Of a DNA stretch of 64,000 nt, positions 8,771 through 24,825 are shown piece after piece. Below the pieces are notes generated by a model. The model was given only the letters and a program-made list of their open reading frames with translations. It was not told the origin of the DNA and ran no database searches. This DNA is from Candidatus Sulfomarinibacteraceae bacterium (lineage in GTDB: Bacteria > Acidobacteriota > Thermoanaerobaculia > Thermoanaerobaculales > Sulfomarinibacteraceae). The translations under genes were made by a program, and so were the position numbers. Where the stretch lies: contig CAVQQC010000009.1 of NCBI GenBank assembly GCA_963714895.1, forward strand, positions 26,172 through 90,171, given 5' to 3'. Position 1 is the stretch's first letter; every line of letters starts with the position of its first letter.

Positions 8771-9658
8771 CTAGCTTTTCCCCTGGTGGGCGAGGAGCCC
8801 GATGAAGCGGGCGATGTAGGGAGGTTTGTGATCGTCGTCGATCATGGCCGCGAACCATGACCGGAGCATGCCCCTGCGGCCGAGACGGACGGTCTGCAAC
8901 CCGCCGTCGGCCAGGAACGGGCGGACCGGCCACGAGTTGAGGAGGGCGACCCCCGCACCGCCTTTGACCATGTCGACGATGGCCTCGATGGTAGGGAGCG
9001 TGATGACGGACTTCGGAGTGACTTCGGAGGGAACGAGCACGGTCGACCTGATGTCCATTCCGTTCATCGGGAAGTCGAACGTGACAAGGTTCTCATCGGC
9101 CAACAGTCGCGCCGTGACGTGGTCTTTGGAGGCCCACCGGTGGTCGGATCGGACGACCGCCACCAGTTCGTCGTCAAAGAGCTTCAGGTAGACGAGGCCC
9201 CGGCCGTCGACCTTCGAATTCGTGATGGCGATGTCGACAGCTCCGCTCAGTACGCGGTTCGTCGGGTCGTGGTCCCACAGTGGGTCGATGGAGATTTCGA
9301 CGTCCGGGTAGGCGATCTTGAAGGAGTTGACGACGCTCGGGAGCCACCTGAAACCCAGCGAGCGGCAGGCGGCGATGCGAAGGGTCCCCGTCTCTCCGGA
9401 TGACAGACGCGAGATGTCATCGCGCACCTTGTCGATCTCGCCGAGAACGACGTGGGCGCCGTCGAGGAACCTCTGACCGGCCGGTGTGAGCAACATCCGC
9501 CTCTTGAAGCGGCGAAACAGCTTGACCCCGAACTCGTTTTCGATCTCTTTGAGTTGGTGGCTCAAAGCCGACTGGGAGAGATAGAGCCGCTGACCGGCGG
9601 CGGTCAACGTGCCTTCCGTGGCGAGGGTTTGGACCAGGCGAAGGTGGCGGATCTCCAT
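8771..9658 (-). CDS. LysR-family transcriptional regulator
   Basis: MEIRHLRLVQTLATEGTLTAAGQRLYLSQSALSHQLKEIE is a LysR wHTH, followed by a substrate-binding domain. ATG 9658 is 8 nt after GGAG; alternative ATG at 9664. Confidence 0.9.
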   Translation of the reverse strand: MEIRHLRLVQTLATEGTLTAAGQRLYLSQSALSHQLKEIENEFGVKLFRRFKRRMLLTPAGQRFLDGAHVVLGEIDKVRDDISRLSSGETGTLRIAACRSLGFRWLPSVVNSFKIAYPDVEISIDPLWDHDPTNRVLSGAVDIAITNSKVDGRGLVYLKLFDDELVAVVRSDHRWASKDHVTARLLADENLVTFDFPMNGMDIRSTVLVPSEVTPKSVITLPTIEAIVDMVKGGAGVALLNSWPVRPFLADGGLQTVRLGRRGMLRSWFAAMIDDDHKPPYIARFIGLLAHQGKS

Positions 9659-9692
9659 CGCCATCACTCCCGGATCACGCGGAACTTGGAGC

Positions 9693-9780
9693 GAGACTGA
9701 AGGCGGGCTGAAGCCCCCCCTGCCAGTCCGCACGGCCGGTTGGTCCGAAGTAGGGAGGGCCTTGGTCCACCTTCAGTCTC
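9693..9780. repeat. REP/MITE-like element, family 1 (degenerate copy)
   Basis: gagactgaaggcgggctgaagcccccc ... ggtccgaagtagggagggccttggtccaccttcagtctc. The termini are inverted repeats (gagactgaagg / ccttcagtctc). Lies in the divergent LysR/S9 control region. Confidence 0.7.
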
Positions 9781-9998
9781 GCTGTTGTTGCGAAGGCCGC
9801 AAATGCAGCGTCTCGCTGGGTCGAGATCCGCGCGGGGGAAAACTGTTTCTCCGCCCGTTCCGGGGCTCTGGAAGGCTCGCAATGACAACTCTCCCTCTGT
9901 GATCTTCCTACGAAAAACTGCGCCGAAAGTTCGAAGCTGCAGCGATCACTCTGTAGAATGCGGTTGGCCGGGAAGGCCCCATCGCAGGAGGAGGAGAC

Positions 9999-12119
9999 AT
10001 GTCGCGAATTCATGGATCGAATCGGCTTGGAATGGTCGTGCTGCTTTCGGCCGTCTGTTGTACGGTCGTACCGGCAGGACCGGTGACCGCCGGGGGCATG
10101 ACGTTCGAGCAGCTGGGAGGTCTGCGGTCGGCTGGTGGGGCGGTCATGTCGCCGGACGGGGCCTGGATCGCCTACGGACTCACCGTGCCGCGGCGGCCAG
10201 GCATCGACGACGACGGTCCGGCGTGGGTTGAACTGCATGTGATCGGGAGCGATGGTCGGGACCGGACCTACGTCGGTGGAGAGGTCAAGGTCTCCCAGAT
10301 CGGATTCAGCCCCGATGGTTCGCTCATCACCTACCTCGCCGAACGCAACGGAGACGAACACACCGCGCTGTGGGCGATCCCGCTCGCCGGAGGCGAGTCG
10401 AAACGGATGATCTCGTACGACACCGACATCACCGACTATCGGGTGTCGCCCGACGGGAAGACGGTCGCCTTCATTGCCAAGGAGGCCGAGAGCGAAGACC
10501 GCAAGAAGATCGAAGACGAAGGCTACTCGCAGGAGGTCTTCGAGGAGGACTGGTTGCCGAAACGGGTCTGGCTGCAGGCCATGCCGCCGTTGCATCCGGT
10601 GGTCGCCGACCCCTCGGACCCGGCCCCGGCTGGTGAGGAGCCTCGTGCCTTGCCGGTCGAGGGATCGGTCTTCCACGTTCGTTGGAGCCCCGGTGGCGAG
10701 TGGCTGGCGGTGGATGTGGCGCCGACCCCGTTGATTGACGATGAGTACATGGCCCGGCGGGTTCGCGTGGTCGACGCGCGCACCGGCGAAGGCCGGACCT
10801 CGTTCGACAACCCCGGCAAACTCGGTGATTTTGAAATCAGCCCCGACGGCGCCCACCTGGCGATGATTTCGGCCGCCGATCCCAACGATCCGGCGGCCGG
10901 AAGGTTGCTGGTGGCGAAGGCGGCAGGAGGTCAACTGCGGGACGTGTTGCCGGGCCTCGAGGGCCACGTGACCGCCTTTGTCTGGCAGGATGCAGACACC
11001 CTGATGTTCCTCTCCGACGAGAGGGAGGAGACCCGGTTCGGCGAGGTCGATATCACCACGGGCGAGCAGAAGACCCACGCGACCTCGGGTATCGAGCAGG
11101 GGAACGCCCGGGCCCCGATCATGATCGGTCTGGCCATCGCCGGCGACGGGAAGCGTGCGGTGCTGGTCGGCGACTCGCCGAACCACCCGTCCGAGATCTT
11201 CACGATGAGCCACGGCGACGCGGGACTGACGCGGCTGACGGACAGCAATCCGTGGCTGGCTGAGGTGGATCTCGCCGAACAGGAGGTTTTCCGCCATCGG
11301 GCGAAAGACGGGCTCGATCTCAGCGGGATGTTGGTCCGGCCGCTTGGCGATTCCAAGGAGCCGGCGCCGCTCCTGCTCATGGTGCATGGCGGACCCGAAG
11401 GCCACCGCCGCAACGGCTGGTTGACAAGCTACTCGTCGCCCGCCCAACTCGCTGCCGATCGCGGCTACGCCGTGTTCTTCCCCAACTATCGCGGCAGCAC
11501 CGGCCGTGGCGTCGCGTTCTCGAAGCTCGGTCAGGCCGATGCCGCCGGGGCGGAGTTCGACGATCTCCTGGACGCGGTCGACGCATTGGTGGCGGCGGGA
11601 ATCGCCGATCCCGACCGCGTCGGCATCACCGGCGGCTCCTACGGCGGCTACGCCACCGCGTGGTGCGCGACCCGTTACAGCGAGCGCTTTCGGGCGGGGG
11701 TCATGTTTGTCGGCATCAGTAACGACATCAGCAAGGGGCTGACCACCGAGATCCCGGTGGAAGATCGGATGGTCCACACTCTCGCGGACCCGTGGACCAA
11801 GTTGCAGTTCCGGCTCGAGCGCAGCCCGATCGCATACGTCGAAAACGCCCGGACTCCGTTGCTCATCGCCGGCGGCACCGCCGATTCGCGGGTTCACCCT
11901 TCACAGAGCCTGCAGCTCTACCGGGCGCTCAAGTTGTCGGGCAAGGCCCCGGTTCGCTACGTGCGCTACCCCGGCGAGAAGCACGGCAATTCGAGGGCCG
12001 CATCGAGAGATGACTACGCGCGACGTCTGATGCGGTGGATGGACCACTTCGTGAAGGATGAGAACACCGAACTTCCACCATGGGAACTTGATGTCATCGG
12101 AAAGGAATCACAACAATGA
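9999..12119 (+). CDS. S9-family serine peptidase (prolyl oligopeptidase / acylaminoacyl-peptidase type), secreted
   Basis: 706 aa with a signal-like N-terminus. Beta-propeller-type N-half (repeated SPDG motifs). C-terminal GITGGSYGGYATAW nucleophile elbow. Confidence 0.9.
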   Translation: MSRIHGSNRLGMVVLLSAVCCTVVPAGPVTAGGMTFEQLGGLRSAGGAVMSPDGAWIAYGLTVPRRPGIDDDGPAWVELHVIGSDGRDRTYVGGEVKVSQIGFSPDGSLITYLAERNGDEHTALWAIPLAGGESKRMISYDTDITDYRVSPDGKTVAFIAKEAESEDRKKIEDEGYSQEVFEEDWLPKRVWLQAMPPLHPVVADPSDPAPAGEEPRALPVEGSVFHVRWSPGGEWLAVDVAPTPLIDDEYMARRVRVVDARTGEGRTSFDNPGKLGDFEISPDGAHLAMISAADPNDPAAGRLLVAKAAGGQLRDVLPGLEGHVTAFVWQDADTLMFLSDEREETRFGEVDITTGEQKTHATSGIEQGNARAPIMIGLAIAGDGKRAVLVGDSPNHPSEIFTMSHGDAGLTRLTDSNPWLAEVDLAEQEVFRHRAKDGLDLSGMLVRPLGDSKEPAPLLLMVHGGPEGHRRNGWLTSYSSPAQLAADRGYAVFFPNYRGSTGRGVAFSKLGQADAAGAEFDDLLDAVDALVAAGIADPDRVGITGGSYGGYATAWCATRYSERFRAGVMFVGISNDISKGLTTEIPVEDRMVHTLADPWTKLQFRLERSPIAYVENARTPLLIAGGTADSRVHPSQSLQLYRALKLSGKAPVRYVRYPGEKHGNSRAASRDDYARRLMRWMDHFVKDENTELPPWELDVIGKESQQ

Positions 12120-14236
12120 AGAAGACATTTTCGATCGCTGTTGTCTTGTCGATTTTCCTGCTGTCGGGCTGCGGGGCGAAAACCGAAAACCCGGCTGCCG
12201 GTGAAAATCCGTTCTTTGTCGAGTGGACCACGCCGTTCGGCGTGCCGCCGTTCGGCGACATCGAGAACGAGGATTTCCTGCCGGCCTTCGAGAAAGGCAT
12301 TGCGGAGGAGCGGGCGGAGGTCGAGGCCATCGCGCCGACCAGAATCCGCCGACCTTCGACAACACCATCGGGGCGCTCGATGCCACCGGGGAGCTGATGA
12401 GACAAGGTCGGCGGCGTTTTCTACACCCTGATCGGCGCGGAAACCAATGACGACATCCAGGCGATCGCCAAGGAGGTCGCGCCGATGACCTCGAACCTCC
12501 GCGACGACATCCTCATGAATCCGCGAGCTCTTCGCCCGGGTGAAGGCGTCTACGAGCAGCGCGACGAACTCGACCTCGACGCGGAGCAGCGGCAGCTCCT
12601 CGAGGAGACCTACCTCGATTTCGTCAGTGGTGGCGCCGAGCTGTCCGCCGAGCGACCAGGCCCGGATGCGGGAGATCAATACCAGGCTGTCGACTCTCGG
12701 ACTGACATTCGGCGACAACGTGCTGGCCGAAACCAATCGGCTATCAGCTCTTCATCGACAACGAGGAGGACCTCGCAGGTCTTCCTCCCGGCGTCGTCGA
12801 GGGTGCGGCCGATGCGGCAGCCAAGGCGGGCCAGGAGGGCAAGTGGCTCTTCACGACCCACCGGCCGAGCATCTATCCCTTCCTCCAGACTACGCCGACA
12901 ACCGCGAGCTTCGCGAGCAGATCTTCACGGCCTACATCATGCGCGGCGACCACGGCGACGAGTACGACAACAAGGCGATCCTGTCCGAGATCCTGACGCT
13001 TCGCGCCGAAAAGGCGAAGCTCCTGGGGTATCGACACCACGCCGATTTCGTCCTCGAGCGGCGGATGGCCAAGACCCCGGAGGCGGTCTACGAGCTCCTG
13101 GAGGATCTCTGGTATCCGTCGCTCGGCGTGGCCCGTGAGGAGGCGGCGACCCTGCAGGCGGCGATCGAGGAGGACGGTTTCGACTTCAAGCTCGAGCCGT
13201 GGGATTGGCGCTACTACGCCGAAAAGGTCCGCCGGGCGCGATACGACGTCGACGAGCAGGAGATCCGGCCGTACTTCATGATCGACAACGTGATCGACGG
13301 CGCCTTCTACGTGGCCAACCGGCTCTACGGCATCGAGTTCACCGAGCGCTTCGAAGGCATTCCCGACCTATCACCCCGAGGTGCGGACCTTCGAGGTCAC
13401 CGACGCCGATGGCAGCCACCTCGGCGTCTTCATGACCGACTACTATCCGCGACCCGGGAAAGCGCGGCGGCGCCTGGAGCCGCCGGATCCGCGGCCAGTG
13501 GGTCGAGGACGGCGAGCAGGTGCGGCCCATCGTGCTCAACGTCGGCAACTTCTCGCGTCCGGTCGGCGACGCGCCGGCGCTGATCTCGTTCGAAGAGGTC
13601 CACACCCTCTTCCACGAGCTCGGCCACGGGCTGCAGGCGCTGCTTGTCGAACGTCCAGTACCGCGGGTCGGCGGGCGTGACGCGGGACTTCGTCGAGCTG
13701 CCGTCGCAGATCATGGAGAACTGGCTGCTCGAGCCGGAGGTGCTCGCGGTCTACGCCAAGCACTACGAGACCGGCGAGGTGATCCCCGCCGAGCTGGTGG
13801 CGAAGATTCAAGCCGCCGAGCAGTTCAACCAGGGCTTTACGTCGGTTGAGTACCTGGCGGCCTGCTATCTGGATATGGACTGGCACACCCTCGAGGACCC
13901 GGCCGGGGTCGATGTGACCGAGTTCGAAAAGGCGTCGATGGACAAGATCGGCCTGATTCCAGAGATCGTGGTGCGCTACCGCAGTCCGTACTTCAGCCAC
14001 ATCACCGGAGGATACTCGGCCGGCTACTACAGCTACATCTGGAGCGAGGTCCTCGATGCGGATGCGTTCGAGGCGTTCAAGGAGACGAGCCTCTTCGACC
14101 AGGAGACCGCCGCAGGCCTTCCGCACCAACATCCTGGAAAAGGGCGGCTCCGAAGATCCCGAGGAGCTCTACCTGCGCTTCCGCGGCCAGCCGCCGAGCG
14201 TCGAACCGCTGCTTGCAGAGGAAGGGCTTCAAATAG
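12116..14236 (+). pseudogene. dcp: M3-family peptidyl-dipeptidase (Dcp-like) lipoprotein; reading frame broken about 12 times
   Basis: ATGA start/stop overlap with the S9 gene. Lipobox LLSGC. Homology-consistent text (PTFDNTIGALD, ELFARVKA/VYEQRDELDLDAEQRQLLEETYLDF, YADNRELREQIFTAY, HELGHGL, RDFVELPSQIMENW) has to be stitched across ORFs 12116, 12223, 12485, 12540, 13381, 13520, 13644 and 14056. Confidence 0.85.
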
Positions 14237-14246
14237 TCACGAGATT

Positions 14247-14277
14247 GCCGGCCGCAAATGCGGCCGGCCCATTTTTC
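14247..14277 (+). terminator. rho-independent terminator after dcp
   Basis: GCCGGCCGC-aaat-GCGGCCGGC stem followed by ccaTTTTTc. Lies 10 nt after the TAG used for the repaired dcp end. Confidence 0.75.
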
Positions 14278-14281
14278 TGCC

Positions 14282-14311
14282 GATAAAAACCGAGGCCGGT
14301 CTCCCGGCCTC
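14282..14311 (-). terminator. rho-independent terminator after the peroxiredoxin gene (also U-rich on the + strand, so possibly bidirectional)
   Basis: On the minus strand: GAGGCCGG-gaga-CCGGCCTC followed by ggTTTTTa. Confidence 0.7.
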
Positions 14312-14335
14312 TTCTTATTCTGTCGGCAGAAAAGA

Positions 14336-15095
14336 CTAGCTGAACTCGGTGGCCCTGCCCGCCGAGATACGTGATGATCTCGGCCGACTCGTGGTGCGGA
14401 GTGCTGCCGATCACCAGACACGGGGCCTGGCCCTTGCCGGCGATCGCCACCAGGTCTTCGAGGGCTTTCGGCGTCCTCGCTGACGTTGCGGACCGGGATC
14501 GAGTCGATGTGCAGGTTGCCGAGGGCGGCCAACGCATTGGTCGAGAACATGCAGTTCGACCGGATGTAGAGAACCGTATCGGGCTCGAGTCCGGGCGCCG
14601 CGGCGAAGGAAGCAAGATCTCCCTCGTAGGCGCCGTTGACCTCTTCGCAGAGCGCCGCAAGCTCGGCGATGTCGCGTTTGCCGCCGGGCCCCACCGACGA
14701 GACGTGGCGGACGACACCGTCCGGCGTCGATGATGACGGTGGCGCGGTCGGTGATTCCGGCGCTCGTCGAGGTAGAGACCGTAGGCCTTCGCGACCTCAC
14801 CCTTGGGGTGGAAGTCGGCGAGCAGCGGGAACGAGACGCCACCGAGGCTCATGGCCCAGTTGGCGTGGCAGTAGATCGAGTCAACGCTGACACCCAGAAC
14901 CTGGGTGTTGGCGGCGAGGAAGCGCTCCTGGAGCGCTTCCACGCCGGGTACTTCGGTGCTTCACGTGGGGGTGAAGTCGAGGGGGTAGAACAGCAGCATC
15001 ACGTGCCGTTTGCCCTTGAACTGGTCGAGGGTGAAGGTGCGACCGAACTGGTCTTTGAGTGAGAATCCGGGGGCGTTGTCGCCGATTGCGATCAT
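14336..15095 (-). CDS. peroxiredoxin (AhpC/TSA fold) with in-frame TGA (probable selenocysteine) at the peroxidatic position, fused to a glutaredoxin-like C-terminal domain; 3-4 frameshifts in this assembly
   Basis: ATG 15095 after GGAGGAAC. MIAIGDNAPGFSLKDQFGRTFTLDQFKGKRHVMLLFYPLDFTPT-TGA(14961..14963)-STEVPGVEALQERF... Later text (GITDRATVIIDA / DGVVRHV...CMFSTNALAAL / KALEDLVAIAGKGQAPCLVIG) requires frame changes near 14760, 14722, 14470 and possibly 14357. The 3' end is tentative. Confidence 0.75.
14913..14945 (-). promoter_or_regulatory. SECIS-like stem-loop downstream of the in-frame UGA
   Basis: GGCGU-GGAAGCGCUC-CAG-GAGCGCUUCC-UCGCC. This is 10 perfect bp extended by 4 bp across a U.U mismatch. 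The stem starts 16 nt after the UGA, with the apical loop about 31 nt after it. Confidence 0.6.
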
Positions 15096-15197
15096 GGTTC
15101 CTCCTTTGGCTCCGATCGCAGGGATGGTACACCACCCCGCGGGTGGTGCCGATCACTCCGTCGTTGCGGCGAAGCAGCTCTTCGGTCAGTATGAGGT

Positions 15198-16421
15198 ATG
15201 GCGGTGAGGCGGCGTGCGCCGTTCTGGTGGTTCGTGGTCCTGACGGTGGCTGCGGTGCTGCCCAGGCTGCCGTTGGTGCAGGCTGGGTTTTCGATAGAAG
15301 ATCGCATGTATGTGCAGCTCGCCGGCGAATCGGATGGTCTCGTATCCGGGGTCCTCGAGCCGTGGCCGATTGGGTATTACCGGCCCCTCGTTTCTCAATA
15401 CTTCGAAATCTGTCAAAGAGTATTCGGCGAGTGGGCGCCGGGCTACCATCGCGATGTCGATCTTTGCCATGTGGTGGTCGTGTGGCTGGTGTTCCTGCTG
15501 TGCTCGAGGTTGGCGGGGTTCGGTTGGCCGGCTCTGTACGGGGCGCTTGCCTTTGCGATGTTGCCCATCTTGAACGAGGCCATAGCCTGGACGGCGAGCA
15601 TCGGGGACCTGTTGGCTACCGGATTCGTTCTCAGTGCGGTGCTGTTGGCGTTGGTGGCCGCGGAGGCGACGGCGGCGGTGGGGTGGCGGCTCTGGCTGGT
15701 CTCATTGGCGGCGGTTGTGTTGGGGTGTGGGGCCAAGGAGGCGGCAGTTGTGGCCGGCCTCCTGGTGCCGGTTGCGGTGTGGGTTTTCGGACGGAAGCGC
15801 CCTGGTTGGGGATGGATAGCCGCCTATCCGGCCGTGACCCTCATCTATGTGAGTTGGTATGCCACCCGGCTGCCCGGGATCGGAACGGTCGGAATCCTCG
15901 CGGGAAATCCGTGGCGGTGTCTGGCGGCGACAACCCAGAGTCTCGTGATGGCATGTGTACCGATCGCTCGCAACGAGGTTGGCGATTGGCTGTGGACCGC
16001 GGGAGGTTTGAGTCGGTTCCTGGTCGCGGCTTGCATGGCTTCGCTCGGTGGGTGGATCTGGCTGGCCTGGAGAAGGCGGGACCGTGTCCTGGTGTTCGGC
16101 TGGCTGTGGGCGGTGGCGTCGTTCATACCGGTGTGCCGGCTGGGGTGGGCTGAACGCTACGCCTATCTGCCCGCTGTCGGGCTCGCGCTGGTCGCCGTAG
16201 CAGTCTGTAGGCGGTTCCCCGATCGCCGAGCCACGGTGCTGGGGCTGTTGGTGTTGGTGATCTTCGCCGTGGGCAGCGCGCTGTCGGCCTCTCAGTGGAC
16301 CAATCGGGTGGGCCGGTTCGCGGCGCCGACTCAGATCCGAATGAGCATCGCCGCCCAGTGGAAGCCGGCGCCGAAGGCGGTCAGCAACACCAGGTCTCCG
16401 GCCTTGACCCGGCCCTGTTGA
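15198..16421 (+). CDS. polytopic membrane protein, GT39/PMT_2-like glycosyltransferase N-domain; C-terminus appears truncated
   Basis: 407-aa ORF with about 10 hydrophobic helices. The last 30 codons run antisense into the 3' end of fabH (overlap 16331..16421). Confidence 0.55.
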   Translation: MAVRRRAPFWWFVVLTVAAVLPRLPLVQAGFSIEDRMYVQLAGESDGLVSGVLEPWPIGYYRPLVSQYFEICQRVFGEWAPGYHRDVDLCHVVVVWLVFLLCSRLAGFGWPALYGALAFAMLPILNEAIAWTASIGDLLATGFVLSAVLLALVAAEATAAVGWRLWLVSLAAVVLGCGAKEAAVVAGLLVPVAVWVFGRKRPGWGWIAAYPAVTLIYVSWYATRLPGIGTVGILAGNPWRCLAATTQSLVMACVPIARNEVGDWLWTAGGLSRFLVAACMASLGGWIWLAWRRRDRVLVFGWLWAVASFIPVCRLGWAERYAYLPAVGLALVAVAVCRRFPDRRATVLGLLVLVIFAVGSALSASQWTNRVGRFAAPTQIRMSIAAQWKPAPKAVSNTRSPALTRPC

Positions 16422-17320
16422 CGGGCCTCCCACAGGGCCAGAGGGACCGACGCCGAGCCGGTGTTTCCGTAGTCCTGGACGTTGATGAACAACTTGTCGT
16501 CAGCGACACCGAGCGATTTCTGGAGCGCGTTGATGATCCGCAGATTCGCCTGGTGCGGGACCACGAGGGCGAGGTCCGAGACCTCGACCCCGGCATCGGC
16601 GAGGACCTTTCGCGACGCTGCGCCCATCTTCGATACGGCCTCCTTGAAGACCTCGCGGCCGTTCATGACGAGGTTCTTGTGATCGCCCCGTTGCGCGGCT
16701 TCGACGGTGAACGGCGCTCTGGTGCCGCCCGTCTCGAGACACAGAATGTCGGCCCGTGAGCCGTCGGTGCCGGCCGTGAATGTCAGGAGTTCCGAAGAGC
16801 TTTCGACTGACCCAACAACCGCCGCCCCGGCGGCGTCGCCGAACAACACCGCCGTCGTGCGGTCGTTCCAGTTGACCAGGCGGGTCAGCATCTCGACTCC
16901 GACCAGCAGGACCTTTTTGTCTCCGGTGATCGCTCGCGAGCGCGCGATGTCGAGACCGAGAACGAACCCCGCGCATCCGCTGCCGGCAAGGTCGAAGGAG
17001 GGTATCTCCCGCGCACCGAGAGCGGTCTGGAGGTACGAAGCGGTGTCGGGGAGTTTCACCTCGGGTGTGTCGGTGGCGACGATGATCTCGTCGATGGCGT
17101 CGATGGTGATGCCGGCGTCCTCGAGGGCCGCGCGGGCGGCGGCGGCAGCCAGGTCGACCGTGGTTTCGTTTTCGGCCGCGATGCGGCGGTTTTTGATCCC
17201 GGTGCGGCTTGTGATCCACTCGTCCGAGGTGTCCACGTACTGTGCCCACTCGGCGTTGCCCATCACCCGCTCGGGCAGGTAGGCGCCGAGTCCGAGGATG
17301 CCAATGCGCTGCTCGTTCAT
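16331..17320 (-). CDS. fabH: beta-ketoacyl-ACP synthase III
   Basis: DEWITSRTGI, active-site GSGCAGF, HQANLRI and NTGSASVPLAL motifs. ATG 17320 is 9 nt after GGAGG; the listed ORF starts at 17326. Confidence 0.9.
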   Translation of the reverse strand: MNEQRIGILGLGAYLPERVMGNAEWAQYVDTSDEWITSRTGIKNRRIAAENETTVDLAAAAARAALEDAGITIDAIDEIIVATDTPEVKLPDTASYLQTALGAREIPSFDLAGSGCAGFVLGLDIARSRAITGDKKVLLVGVEMLTRLVNWNDRTTAVLFGDAAGAAVVGSVESSSELLTFTAGTDGSRADILCLETGGTRAPFTVEAAQRGDHKNLVMNGREVFKEAVSKMGAASRKVLADAGVEVSDLALVVPHQANLRIINALQKSLGVADDKLFINVQDYGNTGSASVPLALWEARQQGRVKAGDLVLLTAFGAGFHWAAMLIRI

Positions 17321-17393
17321 TCCCATTTCCCTCCGCGGCGGATGATTCTACAGTGGAATCTGGAAATCGGGACTCACCGTCGCGATGGCGAGC

Positions 17394-20705: not shown

Positions 20706-21245
20706 TCAGCCGGCTTCCGGGCGGAACTCGCCGGTGTCAAACCAGAAGCCCGACCCTGTCACCAGATCCATCTCCGCCTGGACGATCGCAAGGTGGCCCT
20801 CTTCGATCTCGACGAAGCGCTCGAAGAGCCTCTTGCCTTCAGCATCGAGGGTGGCGACCATTTTCTTGTAGAAGTCGCTGGTCTCGCGCTCCGCCTGGAG
20901 GGCCTTTCTCAGGCTTTCGAGTTCGGCGCCGCTGCCGCCGGGGCTGCCGCCCGCGAGGGTGGCGCGGAGCCTGGCCGCGCCGGCCTCGACGGCCGAGCGT
21001 GAACCGAGCTCACCCCCGATATCGTAGATGTTGATCCTGCCGTTGGCGCGCCACTCCTCGAGGCGTTCGCGGAGATATCTGATGTGCCCCTTCTCCTCCT
21101 CGCCCAGGGTCGAAAAGACCCTCCGCGCCACCGGATTCTCGGCGGTCGCAGCAGCCTCGGCATAGGTTGCGTGAACCCGGGTCTCGAATTTGATGGCGGT
21201 CGTGATGGCGTGTTCCAGCTTCACCGAGATCTCCTCGTAGAACAA
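20706..21245 (-). CDS. rubrerythrin/ferritin-like di-iron domain protein
   Basis: Two ExxH-type motifs (GEEEKGHIRYL and EIEEGHLAIV) in a four-helix-like layout. The listed start is TTG, so the start is uncertain. Confidence 0.65.
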   Translation of the reverse strand: MFYEEISVKLEHAITTAIKFETRVHATYAEAAATAENPVARRVFSTLGEEEKGHIRYLRERLEEWRANGRINIYDIGGELGSRSAVEAGAARLRATLAGGSPGGSGAELESLRKALQAERETSDFYKKMVATLDAEGKRLFERFVEIEEGHLAIVQAEMDLVTGSGFWFDTGEFRPEAG

Positions 21246-21366
21246 TCTTGGCCGTCATTATGCCTGATCCCCGGACCGGGTTTTGCACCTCCTGGCGAGG
21301 CAGGGCCCGTGGTACGCTCCGCGACGCTGCGCCGACGGGGGTTCGGCGCAATTTCGGGAGGTCGCC

Positions 21367-23490
21367 GTGAATACCAGAGTTCTTGCCGTGGTGTCGTGCT
21401 TGATCTTGAGTGGCGTGTCCTTTGCGGGAGCCGCTGGTTCGGAAGACTCCGAGGGCGCTCCGGCGAAACCGGCGGCATTTGCAGGCCCGGACTTCAGGGC
21501 GGTCCTCGGTTTGCAGAGCGCCGGCGAACCGAAGATCTCCCCGGACGGCGGGACCGTCGTCTTCACGGTCCGGCGGGCGGACTGGGACGACAACCGGTTC
21601 GACGCCGAGATATGGTTGGCCCGCCGCGGTGAGGAACCGTTCCAACTGACACGGAGCGAGGGCGAGAGCAGCTCGGACGCAAAATGGTCGCCGAATGGTT
21701 CGTGGATCGCCTTTGTGGCCGACCGCGGGAAGGGCCCCCAGATCTGGTTGATCTCACCCGTGGGTGGCGAGGCCCGTCCGCTGACGGCGGTCGAAGACGG
21801 GGTCTCGGATTTCGAGTGGGCGCCCGACGGCGCTCGAATGGCCGTCGCCATCACCGACCGCCAGGGCCCGGAACGGAAGCAGCTCGAGGAGACCTACGGC
21901 GACTATTCGATCGAGGACCACGACTTCCGCAACACCCATCTGTGGTTGTTGGATGTGAATGCGGCGCTTGACGAAAGTGATGGGGTCGCGCTCCCGGACG
22001 AATCGACGGGTGATGACGACGAGGAGGGGGACGATGAAGGAGAAGCCAAGAAACCCTCACCGTTTCGACGTCTCACGAGCGGCGCAGGATTCACCGTCGA
22101 CACATTTCGCTGGTCGCCTGACGGCGCAAGCATCGCGTTCGACCACCTGCCGGATCCGCGCGTCGAGTCCCGCTCCGAGGCGGATCTCTCGATCGTTGAT
22201 GTGGAGACGGCCGAGGTGAGGGCGCTGGTGGCGCAGCCGGGTCCGGACCGCGACCCGCACTGGTCGCCCGACGGTGCCTGGGTGATGTTCTCCACCGGTG
22301 ACGGCGACCCTTCGTACTACCTCAACTCCGAACTGGCAAAGGTGCCCGCCGGTGGCGGCGAACCGGTCGTCCTGACCGAAGGTTTTGATGAAGACGCGGC
22401 CGCGGTCGCGTGGCTTCCCGATGGCATCCGTTTTCTGGCCCTGGAGCGAACGACCCGCGCGCTCTACCGGCTCGATCCGGAGACCGGCGAGGTCGCTCCC
22501 GTGGTCGTGGAGGACGCCCCTCGGATGATCTGGAGCGCGGATTTTTCGAAGGACGGGCGGACGTGGGCGTTTCAGGGAGAAGGCATCGACACGCTGGACG
22601 AGGTGTACCGGGTGGACTCCGGAGAAGACCGGGCTCGCCGCATCACCGGTTCGACCGCCCAGACCGAAGGGTGGGCGATGGGAAGCCGAGAAGTCATCGA
22701 GTGGACGAGCGAGGACGGCGCGAGGGTCGAGGGCGTCCTGCTCAAGCCTGACGACTTCGATCCGTCGATCAAACACCCGCTGCTGGTCATCATCCACGGC
22801 GGGCCGTCGTGGCTGTCCTTCCCGGTCCGCGCCTACACCTATGTCTACCCGGTTCAGCAGTGGCTCGAAAAGGGGGCCGTGATCCTGATGCCCAACTACC
22901 GCGGGTCCGCGGGGTACGGGGAGGCCTTCCGCTCCCTCAACGTCCGCAACCTCGGTGTCGGCGACGCCTGGGATGTGCTGTCGGGGGTCGACCACCTGGA
23001 AGCACAGGGCTTCATCGACAGCGACCGCGTCGGGGCGATGGGTTGGAGCCAGGGCGGTTACATCTCGGCCTTTCTGACCACCACCAGCGACCGCTTTGCG
23101 GCGATCTCGGTCGGGGCGGGGATCTCCAACTGGATGACCTACTACGTCAACACCGACATCCACCCCTTCACCCGCCACTACCTGCAGGGCACGCCGTGGA
23201 GCGATCCCGAGATCTACGCCGTAACCTCGCCGATGTCCTACATCAACGACGCCTCGACGCCGACTCTGATCCAGCACGGCGAGTTCGACCGGAGGGTGCC
23301 CACCCCCAACGCCTACGAGCTTTACCAGGGTCTGCAGGACGTGGGCGTCCCGGTGGAGCTGGTGATCTACAAGGGCTTTGGGCACGGGATCTCCAAACCC
23401 AAGGAACAGCTCGCCGCGGTGTGGCACAACTGGCAGTTCTTTGCGAGGTGGATCTGGGACGAGGAAGTGGTTATCCCGTCCGAGGAGTGA
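21367..23490 (+). CDS. S9-family serine peptidase, second paralogue, secreted
   Basis: GTG 21367 after GGGAGG with a signal peptide. Propeller half with SPDG/WSPDG repeats. GAMGWSQGGYISAF nucleophile elbow. Acidic insert DESTGDDDEEGDDEGE. Confidence 0.9.
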   Translation: MNTRVLAVVSCLILSGVSFAGAAGSEDSEGAPAKPAAFAGPDFRAVLGLQSAGEPKISPDGGTVVFTVRRADWDDNRFDAEIWLARRGEEPFQLTRSEGESSSDAKWSPNGSWIAFVADRGKGPQIWLISPVGGEARPLTAVEDGVSDFEWAPDGARMAVAITDRQGPERKQLEETYGDYSIEDHDFRNTHLWLLDVNAALDESDGVALPDESTGDDDEEGDDEGEAKKPSPFRRLTSGAGFTVDTFRWSPDGASIAFDHLPDPRVESRSEADLSIVDVETAEVRALVAQPGPDRDPHWSPDGAWVMFSTGDGDPSYYLNSELAKVPAGGGEPVVLTEGFDEDAAAVAWLPDGIRFLALERTTRALYRLDPETGEVAPVVVEDAPRMIWSADFSKDGRTWAFQGEGIDTLDEVYRVDSGEDRARRITGSTAQTEGWAMGSREVIEWTSEDGARVEGVLLKPDDFDPSIKHPLLVIIHGGPSWLSFPVRAYTYVYPVQQWLEKGAVILMPNYRGSAGYGEAFRSLNVRNLGVGDAWDVLSGVDHLEAQGFIDSDRVGAMGWSQGGYISAFLTTTSDRFAAISVGAGISNWMTYYVNTDIHPFTRHYLQGTPWSDPEIYAVTSPMSYINDASTPTLIQHGEFDRRVPTPNAYELYQGLQDVGVPVELVIYKGFGHGISKPKEQLAAVWHNWQFFARWIWDEEVVIPSEE

Positions 23491-23534: not shown

Positions 23535-24825
23535 GTGCTGACCATGTTGCGGACATCATCTCGTGCCGTGATCGCGGCGGTCGTCGTTCTCGGGTCTGCG
23601 GGCGTTCCGGGTTGGCTCGAGGCACAGGCACCGTGTCCTTCGCTGCCGCCTCCGGCGGGGCCGGTGATCGAGGTGCAACCGTCGCAGGTGGGCGACCTGC
23701 CCGGTATTGTCGCCAATGCCGCGACCGGCACGACGATCCTGCTTCACGACGGTCCGTACGATCTCGACGGGGCCTTCCTGCACATCACGACCCCCGGTCT
23801 CACCCTGCGCTCGGCAAGCGGAAATCGTGAGGCGGTGGTTCTGGATGGCGGCTATGTCTCGGGTGAGTTGATCAGCATCCAGGCCTCGAACACGACGATT
23901 GCCGACCTCACGTTGCAGCGGGCCTATTACCACCCGATCCATGTCAGCGGGCCCGGGGAACCGATCAGCGGAGTGCTGATCCACAACGTCCACATCATCG
24001 ACCCCGGAGAACAGGCCGTGAAGGTCAATGCGGTGGGGGAGGGAACGGTCGACGACAGCTGCCCTCCAGTGCTCGCACATCGAGCTCACCGATGCCGGAC
24101 GGCCGTTCATTCGGAACAGCTGTTACACCGGCGGGCTCGACGCCCACGCCGCCACCGGTTGGCGGGTGTGGCGCAACCGCATCGAGGGCTTCTGGTGCGA
24201 CGCGGGCCTCTCCGAACACGGGATCCACCTGTGGCGCGCGTCGGCCGACACCGTGGTGGAAGAAAACGTGGTCGTCGACTGCGCCCGTGGCATCGGCTTC
24301 GGGCTCGGTTCGGGGGCGGACGGTCACTCGGGCGGCATCATCCGCAACAACTTCGTGGCCGCATCCGACAGCGATCTCTTCGCGTCCGAGTACGGCTTTG
24401 ACGCGGGCATCGCACTCTGGGGCGCCGAGGGCGCCGCCGTGTACCACAACACCGTGGCCTCGACGCAGGCACCGTTTTCATCCATCGAGTGGCGGTACAT
24501 CGACACCTCGGTCACCATCGTGAACAACCTGACGACCGGTCCGATCCGCGATCGCGGCGGCACCGCCGTTCTCACCACCAACCTCAGCGGCGAACCGGTG
24601 AGTCTGTTTGCGGACGTGGCGGCCGGCGATCTCCACCTGGTCGAACCGCTCTCGAGCCCGGTCGACGCCGGCACGCCCCTGACGTCCGGGCTGTGCGACG
24701 GCGACATCGATCGGCAGCATCGCGACGCAACACCAGACATCGGCGCCGACGAGTTCGGATGGGGGATCTTCGTGGACGGCTTCGAGTCCGGCAACACCAG
24801 CGAGTGGTCGGCGGAAGTCCCGTAA
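23535..24825 (+). CDS. secreted right-handed parallel beta-helix repeat protein; one frameshift near 24057-24064
   Basis: Signal peptide, then repeated short beta-helix-like turns (ADLTLQRAYYHPIHV, GVLIHNVHII, VVEENVVVDCARGIGF, IIRNNFV). ORFs 23535..24401 and 24028..24825 join at ...GEGTVDDS / ALQCSHIELTD. Confidence 0.65.

What the first reader, a model, noticed from the sequence alone, without database searches (positions are those of the whole stretch)
14336..15095. In-frame UGA at the peroxidatic-Cys position of a peroxiredoxin, followed by a SECIS-like hairpin: probable selenocysteine Prx-Grx fusion
- Reading the minus strand from ATG 15095 gives MIAIGDNAPGFSLKDQFGRTFTLDQFKGKRHVMLLFYPLDFTPT-[TGA 14963..14961]-STEVPGVEALQERFLAANTQVLGVSVD.
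- In AhpC/Prx-family proteins the DFTP(V/T)-C-(T/S)TE motif carries the catalytic Cys at that column, and here the frame continues unbroken through the TGA.
- Sixteen nt downstream begins GGCGU-GGAAGCGCUC-CAG-GAGCGCUUCC-UCGCC, a 14-bp stem with a U.U mismatch. Its apical loop lies about 31 nt from the UGA, within the spacing expected for bacterial SECIS elements.
- Gene callers will instead start a shorter ORF at GTG 14942 and lose the active site.
- The C-terminal half looks like a monothiol glutaredoxin-like domain (YIRSNCMFS...).
- Caveat: the same gene carries 3-4 single-base frame changes in this assembly, so a sequencing artefact or a decaying gene cannot be excluded.
Basis: partly seen in the sequence, partly recalled or inferred. 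Interest (0 to 1): 0.75.

Follow-up and report, generated by a model that had tools for sequence, protein, structure and literature searches.

The report
Selenocysteine peroxiredoxin fused to glutaredoxin-like domain
The in-frame TGA is almost certainly a selenocysteine codon at the catalytic site of a peroxide-destroying enzyme; the enzyme family is already known, this copy carries an extra glutathione-type domain, and as assembled it is broken by four single-base insertions that look like assembly errors.

Summary
On the minus strand, an ORF starting at ATG 15095 reads through TGA 14963..14961. That codon aligns with the peroxidatic Cys of M. tuberculosis AhpE and completes the known Sec-peroxiredoxin motif PxxxTxxU.

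Of 81 related genes (80 fetched loci plus the window) from many phyla, 67 have TGA at this codon and 14 have TGC/TGT; no other codon occurs. Both sides of the TGA are under equal purifying selection (dN/dS 0.18 and 0.16). The TGA forms carry a stable hairpin with its loop about 30-40 nt downstream; the Cys forms do not (mean z -2.6 vs -0.07, p=2e-7). The window's hairpin (15 bp, -30 kcal/mol) meets three of the four published bacterial SECIS criteria.

The protein is an AhpE-type Prx fused to a monothiol (CMFS) Grx/GST-N-like domain. Sec-Prx is a long-known selenoprotein family. I did not find the Grx-fused form described, and 114 of the 120 best database relatives are truncated at the TGA.

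Caveats: no Sec machinery lies in the window, so that remains untestable. This copy has four window-only 1-nt insertions inside a 2.9-kb insertion-rich patch. It shows no excess amino-acid change, so the insertions are probably assembly errors. Interest is modest.

The parts
14336..15095 (-). Coding sequence of the Sec-peroxiredoxin/Grx-like fusion. It gives 251 aa after UGA read-through and removal of four 1-nt insertions. Start is ATG 15095..15093; stop is TAG 14338..14336.
   Evidence: It aligns end to end with 250-253-aa orthologues in L001-L022.
15100..15106 (-). Shine-Dalgarno-like AAGGAGG, 4 nt upstream of the ATG.
   Evidence: Read directly from the sequence.
14961..14963 (-). In-frame TGA, the predicted selenocysteine codon (residue 45) at the peroxidatic position of the motif P38-x-x-x-T42-x-x-U45.
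   Evidence: 67 TGA, 11 TGC, 3 TGT at this codon.
14912..14946 (-). SECIS-like hairpin: CGGCG-U-GGAAGCGCUC / CAG / GAGCGCUUCC-U-CGCCG, with the apical loop at 14930..14928.
   Evidence: (z -5.9 in the 51-nt context).
14940..14942 (-). GTG at which ORF finders and gene callers start the truncated product.
   Evidence: Relatives in public databases start at this codon or three codons upstream of it.
14701..15086 (-). AhpC/TSA peroxiredoxin domain of AhpE type (residues 4-131). It includes Arg117 of the active site and the conserved Cys76.
   Evidence: Pfam PF00578 at 3.2e-34. Best PDB sequence and fold match is Mtb AhpE.
14647..14649 (-). Cys149 codon (LAALCEEV), conserved in 134 of 135 fusion-clade sequences; a candidate resolving Cys.
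14403..14571 (-). Glutaredoxin/GST-N-like thioredoxin-fold domain. It contains the monothiol motif C181-M-F-S (Cys codon 14553..14551), the cis-Pro loop APC225 and the ES motif.
   Evidence: Pfam PF00462 at 28.1 bits vs cutoff 22.9 and GST_N_2 at 25.5 vs 25. Weak alignments to GST-zeta and Grx3. Cys181 is conserved in 134 of 135 sequences.
14760..14764 (-). Window-only 1-nt insertion number 1 (frame slip).
14720..14724 (-). Window-only 1-nt insertion number 2.
14466..14473 (-). Window-only 1-nt insertion number 3.
14361..14365 (-). Window-only 1-nt insertion number 4. It hides the true C-terminus ...GGRATEFS*.
14285..14311 (-). Intrinsic-terminator-like hairpin GAGGCCGG-GAGA-CCGGCCUC followed by GGUUUUU.

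Best explanation
The gene encodes a selenocysteine-containing peroxiredoxin. UGA at codon 45 is recoded to Sec by SelB and Sec-tRNA(Sec), guided by the hairpin that starts 14-15 nt downstream. The product is one 251-aa protein: an AhpE-type Prx domain with active site P38/T42/U45/R117, fused to a monothiol (C181-M-F-S) glutaredoxin/GST-N-like domain. Inferred catalytic cycle: the selenolate of U45 reduces a peroxide and becomes a selenenic acid. That is captured as a selenenyl-sulfide, either by glutathione held in the C-terminal domain or by one of the near-invariant cysteines (C149 or C181). The Grx-like domain then regenerates the selenol using a low-molecular-weight thiol. Shown here: the position of the UGA, its alternation with Cys codons, selection on both sides of it, the TGA-specific hairpin, and the domain architecture. 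Inferred: Sec insertion itself, the identity of the resolving thiol, and glutathione dependence. As assembled, the window's copy is interrupted by four 1-nt insertions. I judge these most likely to be assembly errors in a badly polished 2.9-kb patch.
For: The TGA aligns with the peroxidatic Cys of AhpE and with Cys in full-length relatives carrying the identical motif DFTPTCSTEVP. Across 81 genes from Acidobacteriota, Planctomycetota, Myxococcota, Binatota, Verrucomicrobiia, Anaerolineae and others, the codon is TGA 67 times, TGC 11 and TGT 3, and nothing else. One apparent Trp form is really TGA in the DNA. Median dN/dS is 0.18 for codons 1-44 and 0.16 for codons 46-110. Hairpin: TGA forms have mean z -2.63 (n=67), Cys forms -0.07 (n=14), Mann-Whitney p=2e-7, and the loop lies at +30 to +40. 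The window's stem is 66.5% paired across the family against 56% in shuffles and 39-51% when slid, with covariation 0.33 vs 0.19 (0 of 500 shuffles reach it). A TGC form inside the fusion clade lacks the hairpin. Spacing (30 nt), loop length (3 nt), stem (10 bp upper) and MFE satisfy the published bSECIS model (PMC13188914). Domains: PF00578 3e-34 and PF00462 above threshold. The AF2 model of the Cys relative P0001 has pLDDT 82.8, and its best fold match is Mtb AhpE (TM 0.85). Cys149 and Cys181 are each conserved in 134 of 135 sequences. Sec-Prx with TxxU is an established family, and Acidobacteria are listed as having selenoproteins (PMC1088965, PMC1794560, PMC13188914). On the insertions being errors: most of the other window genes compared with relatives align in one frame. 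All four Prx slips, and at least 9 of the roughly 11 single-base indels in the adjacent M3 peptidase gene, are extra bases in the window. The frame-corrected protein has 1 private change at conserved columns against a clade mean of 1.15.
Against: No selA, selB, selD or tRNA-Sec is present in the window or in the 1.3 Mb of relatives' flanks that I hold. This is uninformative rather than negative, but the machinery is unverified. The loop CAG has no G in its first two positions, so one of the four bSECIS criteria fails. RNAalifold finds no single consensus over all 67 sequences because the stem register shifts. Within the close clade there is no covariation, because the sequences are too conserved. 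Synonymous-site suppression in the stem codons is not significant (p=0.13), so part of the hairpin's conservation may follow from the conserved peptide. The gene as assembled cannot make the protein. The resolving Cys and the reductant are inferred only.
Confidence: 0.85

Rival explanations
1. This particular copy is a real pseudogene. The four frameshifts, and those in the neighbouring M3 peptidase gene, are genuine mutations, and the organism no longer makes the enzyme, even though the family is a true selenoprotein family.
For: Four frame slips lie in 760 nt, and at least 9 more in the adjacent gene. The M3 peptidase gene is absent at this position in L001, L002 and L004, so the neighbourhood is evolutionarily variable. 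No second assembly of the same organism was found for comparison.
Against: The frame-corrected protein has no excess of private amino-acid changes (1 vs a clade mean of 1.15, rank 50 of 67). It has no nonsense codons, and all invariant residues are retained. The indels are almost all insertions, whereas natural bacterial decay is deletion-biased (established knowledge). They are confined to about 2.9 kb of a 64-kb window that is otherwise in frame apart from one slip near 24050. That pattern fits a locally under-polished long-read assembly, and many close relatives are long-read MAGs.
Confidence: 0.15
2. The UGA is recoded, but to cysteine (through a tRNA-Sec-like tRNA-Cys of the selC* type) or to another amino acid, not to selenocysteine.
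For: tRNA-Sec-like tRNA-Cys species that may act as opal suppressors have been described in some anaerobic bacteria (PMC5389517). Nothing I ran distinguishes Sec from Cys insertion.
Against: That paper found selC* genes in Firmicutes, Thermodesulfobacteria, Nitrospirae and Proteobacteria, not in Acidobacteria. The TxxU Prx family includes a biochemically proven selenoprotein (Sohling 2001, as cited in PMC13188914). Most genes in the window end in TGA, so UGA is not generally reassigned.
Confidence: 0.03
3. The TGA is an ordinary stop codon. A 44-aa upstream ORF and a separate 200-aa protein starting at GTG 14942 are what is made, and the hairpin is incidental.
For: This is what gene callers output for 114 of the 120 best relatives.
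Against: The 200-aa product would lack the whole active-site loop and the first strands of the Prx fold. The upstream 44 codons are under purifying selection as strong as the rest. The codon alternates only with Cys codons. Full-length Cys forms exist.
Confidence: 0.01
4. The TGA in this window is a sequencing error for TGC/TGT, given that it lies next to an error-rich patch.
For: The gene lies next to and within a region with many assembly-type errors.
Against: The errors in the patch are insertions, not substitutions. All 23 fusion-clade loci from independent assemblies have TGA here, and the window has the TGA-associated hairpin in its strongest form.
Confidence: 0.01

Closest known systems
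Sec-containing peroxiredoxin family (Prx, PF00578, motif TxxU / PxxxTxxU); prototype PrxU of Eubacterium acidaminophilum
   Same: AhpC/TSA fold. The UGA sits exactly at the peroxidatic position of PxxxTxxU. Cys-containing homologues are widespread. A hairpin follows the UGA within the coding region. The presumed chemistry is peroxide reduction by a selenolate.
   Different: It is not an orthologue of PrxU: NCBIfam NF040737 scores 87 bits against a cutoff of 270. The Prx domain is closest to the AhpE subfamily. It carries an extra C-terminal Grx/GST-N-like domain, which is not among the Sec-Prx fusions described in the GOS survey (PP2C phosphatase and unknown domains; PMC2398784).
Mycobacterium tuberculosis AhpE (1-Cys peroxiredoxin, PDB 1xxu/4x0x/5id2)
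   Same: It is the best sequence match (E 4e-25) and the best fold match (TM 0.85, 36% identity). The active-site Pro, Thr and Arg are shared. From my own knowledge: AhpE is recycled by a Grx-like protein (mycoredoxin-1) with mycothiol, which parallels the fused Grx-like domain here.
   Different: AhpE has Cys rather than Sec, is a single-domain protein of 153 aa, and lacks Cys149.
Hybrid Prx5-glutaredoxin (PGdx) of Haemophilus influenzae, PDB 1nm3
   Same: The same domain order, N-terminal Prx and C-terminal Grx in one chain. The model aligns over both domains (252 columns). PGdx is a glutathione-dependent peroxidase (PMC1361801).
   Different: Only 15% identity and TM 0.45-0.47 with rmsd 14.6. 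PGdx has a Prx5-type Prx domain and, from my own knowledge, a dithiol CPYC Grx, and it uses Cys. Here the Prx is AhpE-type, the Grx-like motif is monothiol CMFS, and the peroxidatic residue is Sec.
GST-zeta / Grx2-type glutathione-binding thioredoxin-fold domain
   Same: The C-terminal domain aligns weakly with the N-domain of GST-zeta (E 0.014). Three signatures line up: RSNCMFS with RSSCSWR, QAPCLV with QVPTLK (cis-Pro loop), and HESAEII with HQSLAII. Pfam GST_N_2 is just above threshold.
   Different: The similarity is marginal, there is no GST C-terminal helical domain, and function is inferred from motifs only.

Membership tests
Sec-containing peroxiredoxin (Prx, TxxU) | AhpC/TSA (PF00578) domain above the Pfam gathering score | tested here: met
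   118 bits vs cutoff 26, residues 4-131.
Sec-containing peroxiredoxin (Prx, TxxU) | In-frame UGA at the peroxidatic position of PxxxTxxU/C, plus the active-site Arg | tested here: met
   P38-LDF-T42-PT-U45. The UGA aligns with AhpE Cys45. D116 and R117 are invariant.
Sec-containing peroxiredoxin (Prx, TxxU) | Homologues with Cys aligned to the UGA, and conservation of the reading frame on both sides | tested here: met
   67 TGA, 11 TGC, 3 TGT. dN/dS is 0.18 upstream and 0.16 downstream.
Sec-containing peroxiredoxin (Prx, TxxU) | Bacterial SECIS stem-loop just downstream of the UGA that fits the consensus model: loop 3-9 nt, upper stem 4-16 bp, G in the first two loop positions, spacing 16-37 nt, MFE <= -7.5 (PMC13188914) | tested here: inconclusive
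   Loop 3 nt, stem 10+5 bp, spacing 30 nt and MFE about -30 are met. The loop is CAG, so the G rule is not met. The hairpin is specific to TGA forms and covaries across the family. The review notes that some genuine bSECIS elements fail the model.
Sec-containing peroxiredoxin (Prx, TxxU) | Sec-decoding machinery (selA, selB, selC, selD) in the same genome | not testable with these tools
   None is in the 64-kb window or in the relatives' flanks. The rest of the genome is not available.
Sec-containing peroxiredoxin (Prx, TxxU) | Selenium actually incorporated into the protein | not testable with these tools
   This needs 75Se labelling or mass spectrometry.
PrxU equivalog (NCBIfam NF040737) | Score above the curated cutoff | tested here: not met
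   87.4 bits vs 270. It is the best NCBIfam model, but this protein is not a member.
AhpE subfamily of peroxiredoxins | Closest to AhpE by both sequence and fold | tested here: met
   Top PDB sequence hits and top Foldseek hits, TM 0.85. Formal PREX active-site profiling was not run.
Hybrid Prx5-Grx (PGdx) | N-terminal Prx fused to C-terminal Grx | tested here: met
   Pfam architecture. 1nm3 aligns over both domains.
Hybrid Prx5-Grx (PGdx) | Prx5-type Prx domain and dithiol CxxC glutaredoxin | tested here: not met
   15% identity and TM 0.45 to 1nm3, while the best match is AhpE. The motif is CMFS, not CxxC.
Glutaredoxin domain (PF00462) | Pfam score above gathering, and an active-site Cys at the N-terminus of helix 1 | tested here: met
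   28.1 bits vs 22.9. Cys181 is conserved in 134 of 135 sequences and Ser184 is invariant. In the model, helix 182-193 follows strand 174-177.

The most novel reading that the evidence does not exclude
The AhpE-type selenoperoxiredoxin fused to a monothiol Grx/GST-N-like domain is an undescribed, widespread subfamily found in Acidobacteriota, Myxococcota, Binatota and others. It would work as a self-contained, glutathione-type-thiol-dependent selenoperoxidase, a functional analogue of glutathione peroxidase built on a Prx scaffold. It has stayed unnoticed because nearly every public gene call truncates it at the UGA.
Probability: 0.4. Interest if true: 0.5.

Novelty: new member of a known kind. 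Interest (0 to 1): 0.3.

Why it matters
There are three practical points.

1. Annotation. 114 of the 120 closest database entries are N-terminally truncated at the UGA and lack the active site. One was translated with UGA=Trp. No NCBIfam model covers the subfamily. A dedicated model would repair hundreds of records.

2. Biology. A peroxiredoxin that has both a selenol and its own Grx-like recycling domain is a compact antioxidant module. Testing whether Sec plus the fused domain changes the rate, or the resistance to over-oxidation, would add to the Sec-versus-Cys question.

3. This window. The gene sits in a 2.9-kb insertion-rich patch, which flags local assembly quality. Frameshifts there should not be read as pseudogenes without looking at the reads.

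Tried and rejected
- RNAalifold on all 67 TGA-form sequences gave no consensus structure, because the stem register shifts between subclades. I used per-sequence folding and pair counts instead.
- Pair counts within the fusion clade alone showed no covariation, because the sequences are too conserved.
- Rfam, with permissive E-values, found only chance hits in 14200-15300.
- tRNA-Sec: none in the window or in L001-L060.
- tblastn with E. coli SelA, SelB and SelD against the window plus 80 loci gave only a weak GTPase-domain hit in L020.
- A scan of the window for other in-frame TGAs with coding signal on both sides found no other convincing selenoprotein candidate.
- A metagenome scan for same-species contigs, using a degenerate pattern for VNGAYEGDLASFAAAPG, gave 0 hits. 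I did not use the second scan, because the best protein hit anywhere is only 90% identical.
- The DNA of the closest Cys form, P0001, could not be fetched because the sample file is too large. P0077 served as the control instead.
- Synonymous-site suppression in the stem codons was not significant (p=0.13).
- My simple enumerator of contiguous-stem hairpins found only 10 of 67 sequences meeting all four bSECIS criteria. It is cruder than bSECISearch and should not be over-read.
- The AF2 model coordinates are not exposed, so I could not measure distances between residue 45 and Cys149 or Cys181.
- Programmed frameshifting as an explanation for the four slips was rejected, because no relative has them.
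Full report
**The observation**

AAGGAGG at 15106..15100 precedes ATG 15095. After 44 codons ending in ...FYPLDFTPT comes TGA 14963..14961, and the same frame continues as STEVPGVEALQERFLAANTQVLGVSVD....

A hairpin lies at 14946..14912: CGGCG-U-GGAAGCGCUC, loop CAG, GAGCGCUUCC-U-CGCCG. It folds at -32.6 kcal/mol in a 72-nt context (z -3.7; 0 of 200 shuffles fold as well). The mechanical ORF list starts a 237-aa ORF at GTG 14942.

There are four frame changes. A nucleotide alignment with seven orthologues shows each one as a single base present only in the window, near 14762, 14722, 14471 and 14363. With these removed, the gene ends ...YLGGRATEFS-TAG (14338..14336), like its relatives. An intrinsic-terminator-like hairpin follows at 14311..14285.

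**What the protein is**

The conceptual product has an AhpC/TSA domain (PF00578, 3e-34, residues 4-131) and a Glutaredoxin domain (PF00462, 28.1 bits vs cutoff 22.9). GST_N_2 is just above its threshold.

The best solved relative is the 1-Cys peroxiredoxin AhpE of M. tuberculosis (E 4e-25). In that alignment the TGA column is AhpE Cys45, the peroxidatic cysteine. An AlphaFold model of the full-length Cys relative P0001 has pLDDT 82.8 and pTM 0.81. Its best fold match is again AhpE (TM 0.85, 36% identity). The H. influenzae Prx5-Grx hybrid 1nm3 aligns across both domains, but poorly (15% identity, TM 0.45).

The best NCBIfam model is PrxU, the classical Sec-peroxiredoxin, but at 87 bits against a cutoff of 270. 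So the protein is not an orthologue of PrxU.

The C-terminal domain aligns weakly with the glutathione-binding N-domain of GST-zeta and with Grx3. The motif RSNCMFS lies over RSSCSWR, QAPCLV over the cis-Pro loop, and HESAEII over HQSLAII.

**Is the TGA a Sec codon? Comparative evidence**

In the 5.8-billion-protein collection, 114 of the 120 best hits (62-80% query coverage, 61-90% identity) are about 200 aa long or shorter. Those I aligned start at MPGVEALQ or M/VEALQ, immediately after the TGA column. The few full-length hits carry DFTPTCSTEVP.

A scan of one genome per species returned 80 loci. Translating them shows the protein conserved on both sides of a stop at exactly this column. Counting the window, the codon is TGA 67 times, TGC 11 and TGT 3, and nothing else. 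One database protein with Trp at the column (P0113) has TGA in its DNA, so it had been translated under a UGA=Trp code.

The TGA forms come from Acidobacteriota (Thermoanaerobaculia, "Sulfomarinibacteraceae", Holophagae, Pyrinomonadaceae), Planctomycetota, Myxococcota, Binatota, Verrucomicrobiia, Anaerolineae and others. Within the fusion clade, median dN/dS is 0.18 for codons 1-44 and 0.16 for codons 46-110. The segment upstream of the TGA is therefore translated and constrained like the rest.

In the window, most genes end in TGA, so UGA is not generally reassigned.

**The hairpin**

I folded +10..+60 of every sequence. The TGA forms have a mean z-score of -2.63 (n=67) and the Cys-codon forms -0.07 (n=14; Mann-Whitney p=2e-7). 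The main hairpin's loop lies at about +30 to +40 in nearly all TGA forms.

The window's stem, counted on the gapless codon-register alignment of all 67 sequences, is 66.5% paired. That compares with 56% in shuffles and 39-51% with the partner slid. The covariation score is 0.33 against 0.19, reached by 0 of 500 shuffles. A TGC form inside the fusion clade (P0077) lacks the centred hairpin.

Several results limit this evidence:
- RNAalifold gives no consensus over all 67 sequences, because the stem register shifts by 1-2 nt between subclades.
- Within the close clade the stem is 80% paired (42-54% when slid), but the clade is too conserved to show covariation.
- Synonymous-site suppression in the stem codons is not significant (0.38 vs 0.45, p=0.13). 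The paired third positions of codons 51, 52, 59 and 60 are the least variable.

The published bacterial SECIS model requires a loop of 3-9 nt, an upper stem of 4-16 bp, a G in the first two loop positions, a spacing of 16-37 nt and an MFE of -7.5 kcal/mol or lower (PMC13188914). The window meets loop length (3 nt), stem (10 bp plus a 5-bp lower stem), spacing (30 nt) and energy. It fails the loop-G rule, because the loop is CAG. The same review notes that some genuine elements do not fit the model. Rfam has nothing for this region.

**Sec machinery**

The window has no tRNA genes. The first 60 related loci have no tRNA-Sec. tblastn with E. coli SelA, SelB and SelD against the window plus all 80 loci gives nothing relevant. 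No other in-frame TGA in the window looks like a selenoprotein gene. Only 64 kb of this genome is available, so this is untestable rather than negative. Acidobacteria were already listed among the phyla with selenoproteins (PMC1794560).

**The frame changes**

I used intact proteins of syntenic relatives as rulers. Most window genes they cover align in a single frame over their full length. The slips cluster between 12.1 and 15.0 kb.

The neighbouring M3 peptidase gene is intact in L007 (PF01432, 5e-125). In the window it has at least 9 window-only single-base insertions and at most 2 single-base gaps. The Prx gene has four insertions and no deletions. One further +1 slip lies near 24050.

After frame correction, the window's protein has one private substitution at columns that are at least 95% conserved in 67 close relatives. 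The clade mean is 1.15 and the window ranks 50th of 67. It keeps every invariant residue.

Dense, insertion-only lesions confined to a short patch, with no accompanying substitutions, point to a locally unpolished assembly rather than decay. Natural decay in bacteria is deletion-biased and dominated by substitutions (established knowledge). I could not find a second assembly of the same organism to prove this, so a genuine, very recent pseudogene retains about 15% probability.

**How it probably works**

The Prx active site P38/T42/U45/R117 is complete. Beyond the Sec, Cys149 and Cys181 (the CMFS motif at the start of helix 1 of the Grx-like domain) are each conserved in 134 of 135 fusion-clade sequences. 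Cys225, next to the cis-Pro, is conserved in 129 and Cys76 in 124.

The most economical mechanism runs as follows. The selenolate reduces the peroxide to give a selenenic acid. A thiol resolves it to a selenenyl-sulfide; that thiol is either glutathione bound in the C-terminal domain or Cys149/Cys181. The Grx-like domain then regenerates the selenol by a monothiol mechanism.

Two known systems are close parallels. One is the glutathione-dependent Prx5-Grx hybrid PGdx (PMC1361801; 1nm3). The other, from my own knowledge, is the recycling of AhpE by the Grx-like mycoredoxin-1. The domain logic is shown here. The identity of the resolving thiol and of the reductant is inferred.

**Comparison with what is known, and novelty**

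Sec-peroxiredoxins with the TxxU (PxxxTxxU) motif are an established family:
- one was shown biochemically in Eubacterium acidaminophilum (Sohling 2001, cited in PMC13188914);
- 253 sequences were found in the GOS data (PMC2398784);
- repeated Cys-to-Sec conversions have been inferred within it (PMC1794560).

The core of the finding is therefore a new member of a known kind.

Two things appear not to be documented: the AhpE-type Prx domain combined with a fused monothiol Grx/GST-like domain in a Sec form, and how widespread that combination is. The GOS survey lists other Prx fusions but not this one. A text search that combined Prx-Grx hybrid terms with selenocysteine found no paper describing a Sec-containing Prx-Grx hybrid. 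No NCBIfam model reaches its cutoff. My literature access is limited to open-access text, so I cannot claim priority.

**Surroundings**

The neighbourhood is ordinary:
- S9 peptidases (9957-12119 and 21268-23490);
- the M3 peptidase, convergent with the Prx gene;
- a divergent conserved 408-aa protein with no Pfam hit (15195-16421);
- FabH (16331-17347);
- an amino-acid permease-Usp fusion, and EamA transporters;
- a rubrerythrin-like gene (20706-21254);
- a LysR regulator (8771-9772);
- a TonB-dependent receptor-like protein, an S46 peptidase and a HAMP-Ser/Thr kinase.

Gene order is shared with Acidobacteriota MAGs L001-L003 at 74-88% nucleotide identity. This places the window in or near Thermoanaerobaculia.

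**Verdict**

Confidence that this is a genuine Sec-encoding UGA in a peroxiredoxin-Grx-like fusion family is about 0.85. The integrity of this particular copy is unresolved, although the insertions look like assembly errors. Novelty is modest, and I rate interest at 0.3.

Noticed in passing
window 12100-14245 (+): The M3 peptidase gene, intact in relative L007 (732 aa), is split over three frames by at least 9 window-only single-base insertions and at most 2 single-base gaps. Together with the Prx gene this forms a 2.9-kb insertion-rich patch in a 64-kb window where most other genes compared are in frame, probably a locally unpolished stretch of a long-read assembly.
   Followed up: partly
window 23619-24681 (+), slip near 24050: A conserved gene of about 375 aa with no Pfam hit shows one +1 frame slip relative to its orthologue in L002. 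It is the only other clear slip seen in the genes compared with relatives (roughly the first 43 kb of the window).
   Followed up: partly
L083:190-933 (protein P0113): A JGI protein record shows Trp at the Sec column, but the DNA has TGA followed by a strong hairpin. The source translated it under a UGA=Trp code.
   Followed up: yes
proteins P0002-P0120: 114 of the 120 closest database relatives are N-terminally truncated at the TGA. One NCBI record is named 'redoxin domain-containing protein'. No NCBIfam model covers this subfamily.
   Followed up: partly
L011 and L021: One Holophagae MAG (MFD09964.bin.1.228) carries two copies of the TGA-form fusion gene on two contigs, with almost identical SECIS regions.
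   Followed up: no
L031:10626-10701, L039:4884-4959, L040:4679-4754, L041:1623-1698: In several Planctomycetota the short, Grx-less TGA-form Prx gene is followed directly by a tRNA-Asn gene.
   Followed up: no
window 15195-16421 (+): A 408-aa gene transcribed divergently from the Prx gene has no Pfam hit. It is conserved next to the Prx gene in L002 (59% identity).
   Followed up: no
window 20706-21254 (-) and 8771-9772 (-): A rubrerythrin-like gene and a LysR-family regulator lie within 6 kb of the Prx gene. They may belong to the same oxidative-stress context, but no link was tested.
   Followed up: no
window 14247-14268 (+) and 14292-14311 (both strands): Two terminator-like hairpins lie in the short gap between the convergent M3 peptidase and Prx genes. 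One of them scores as a terminator on both strands.
   Followed up: partly
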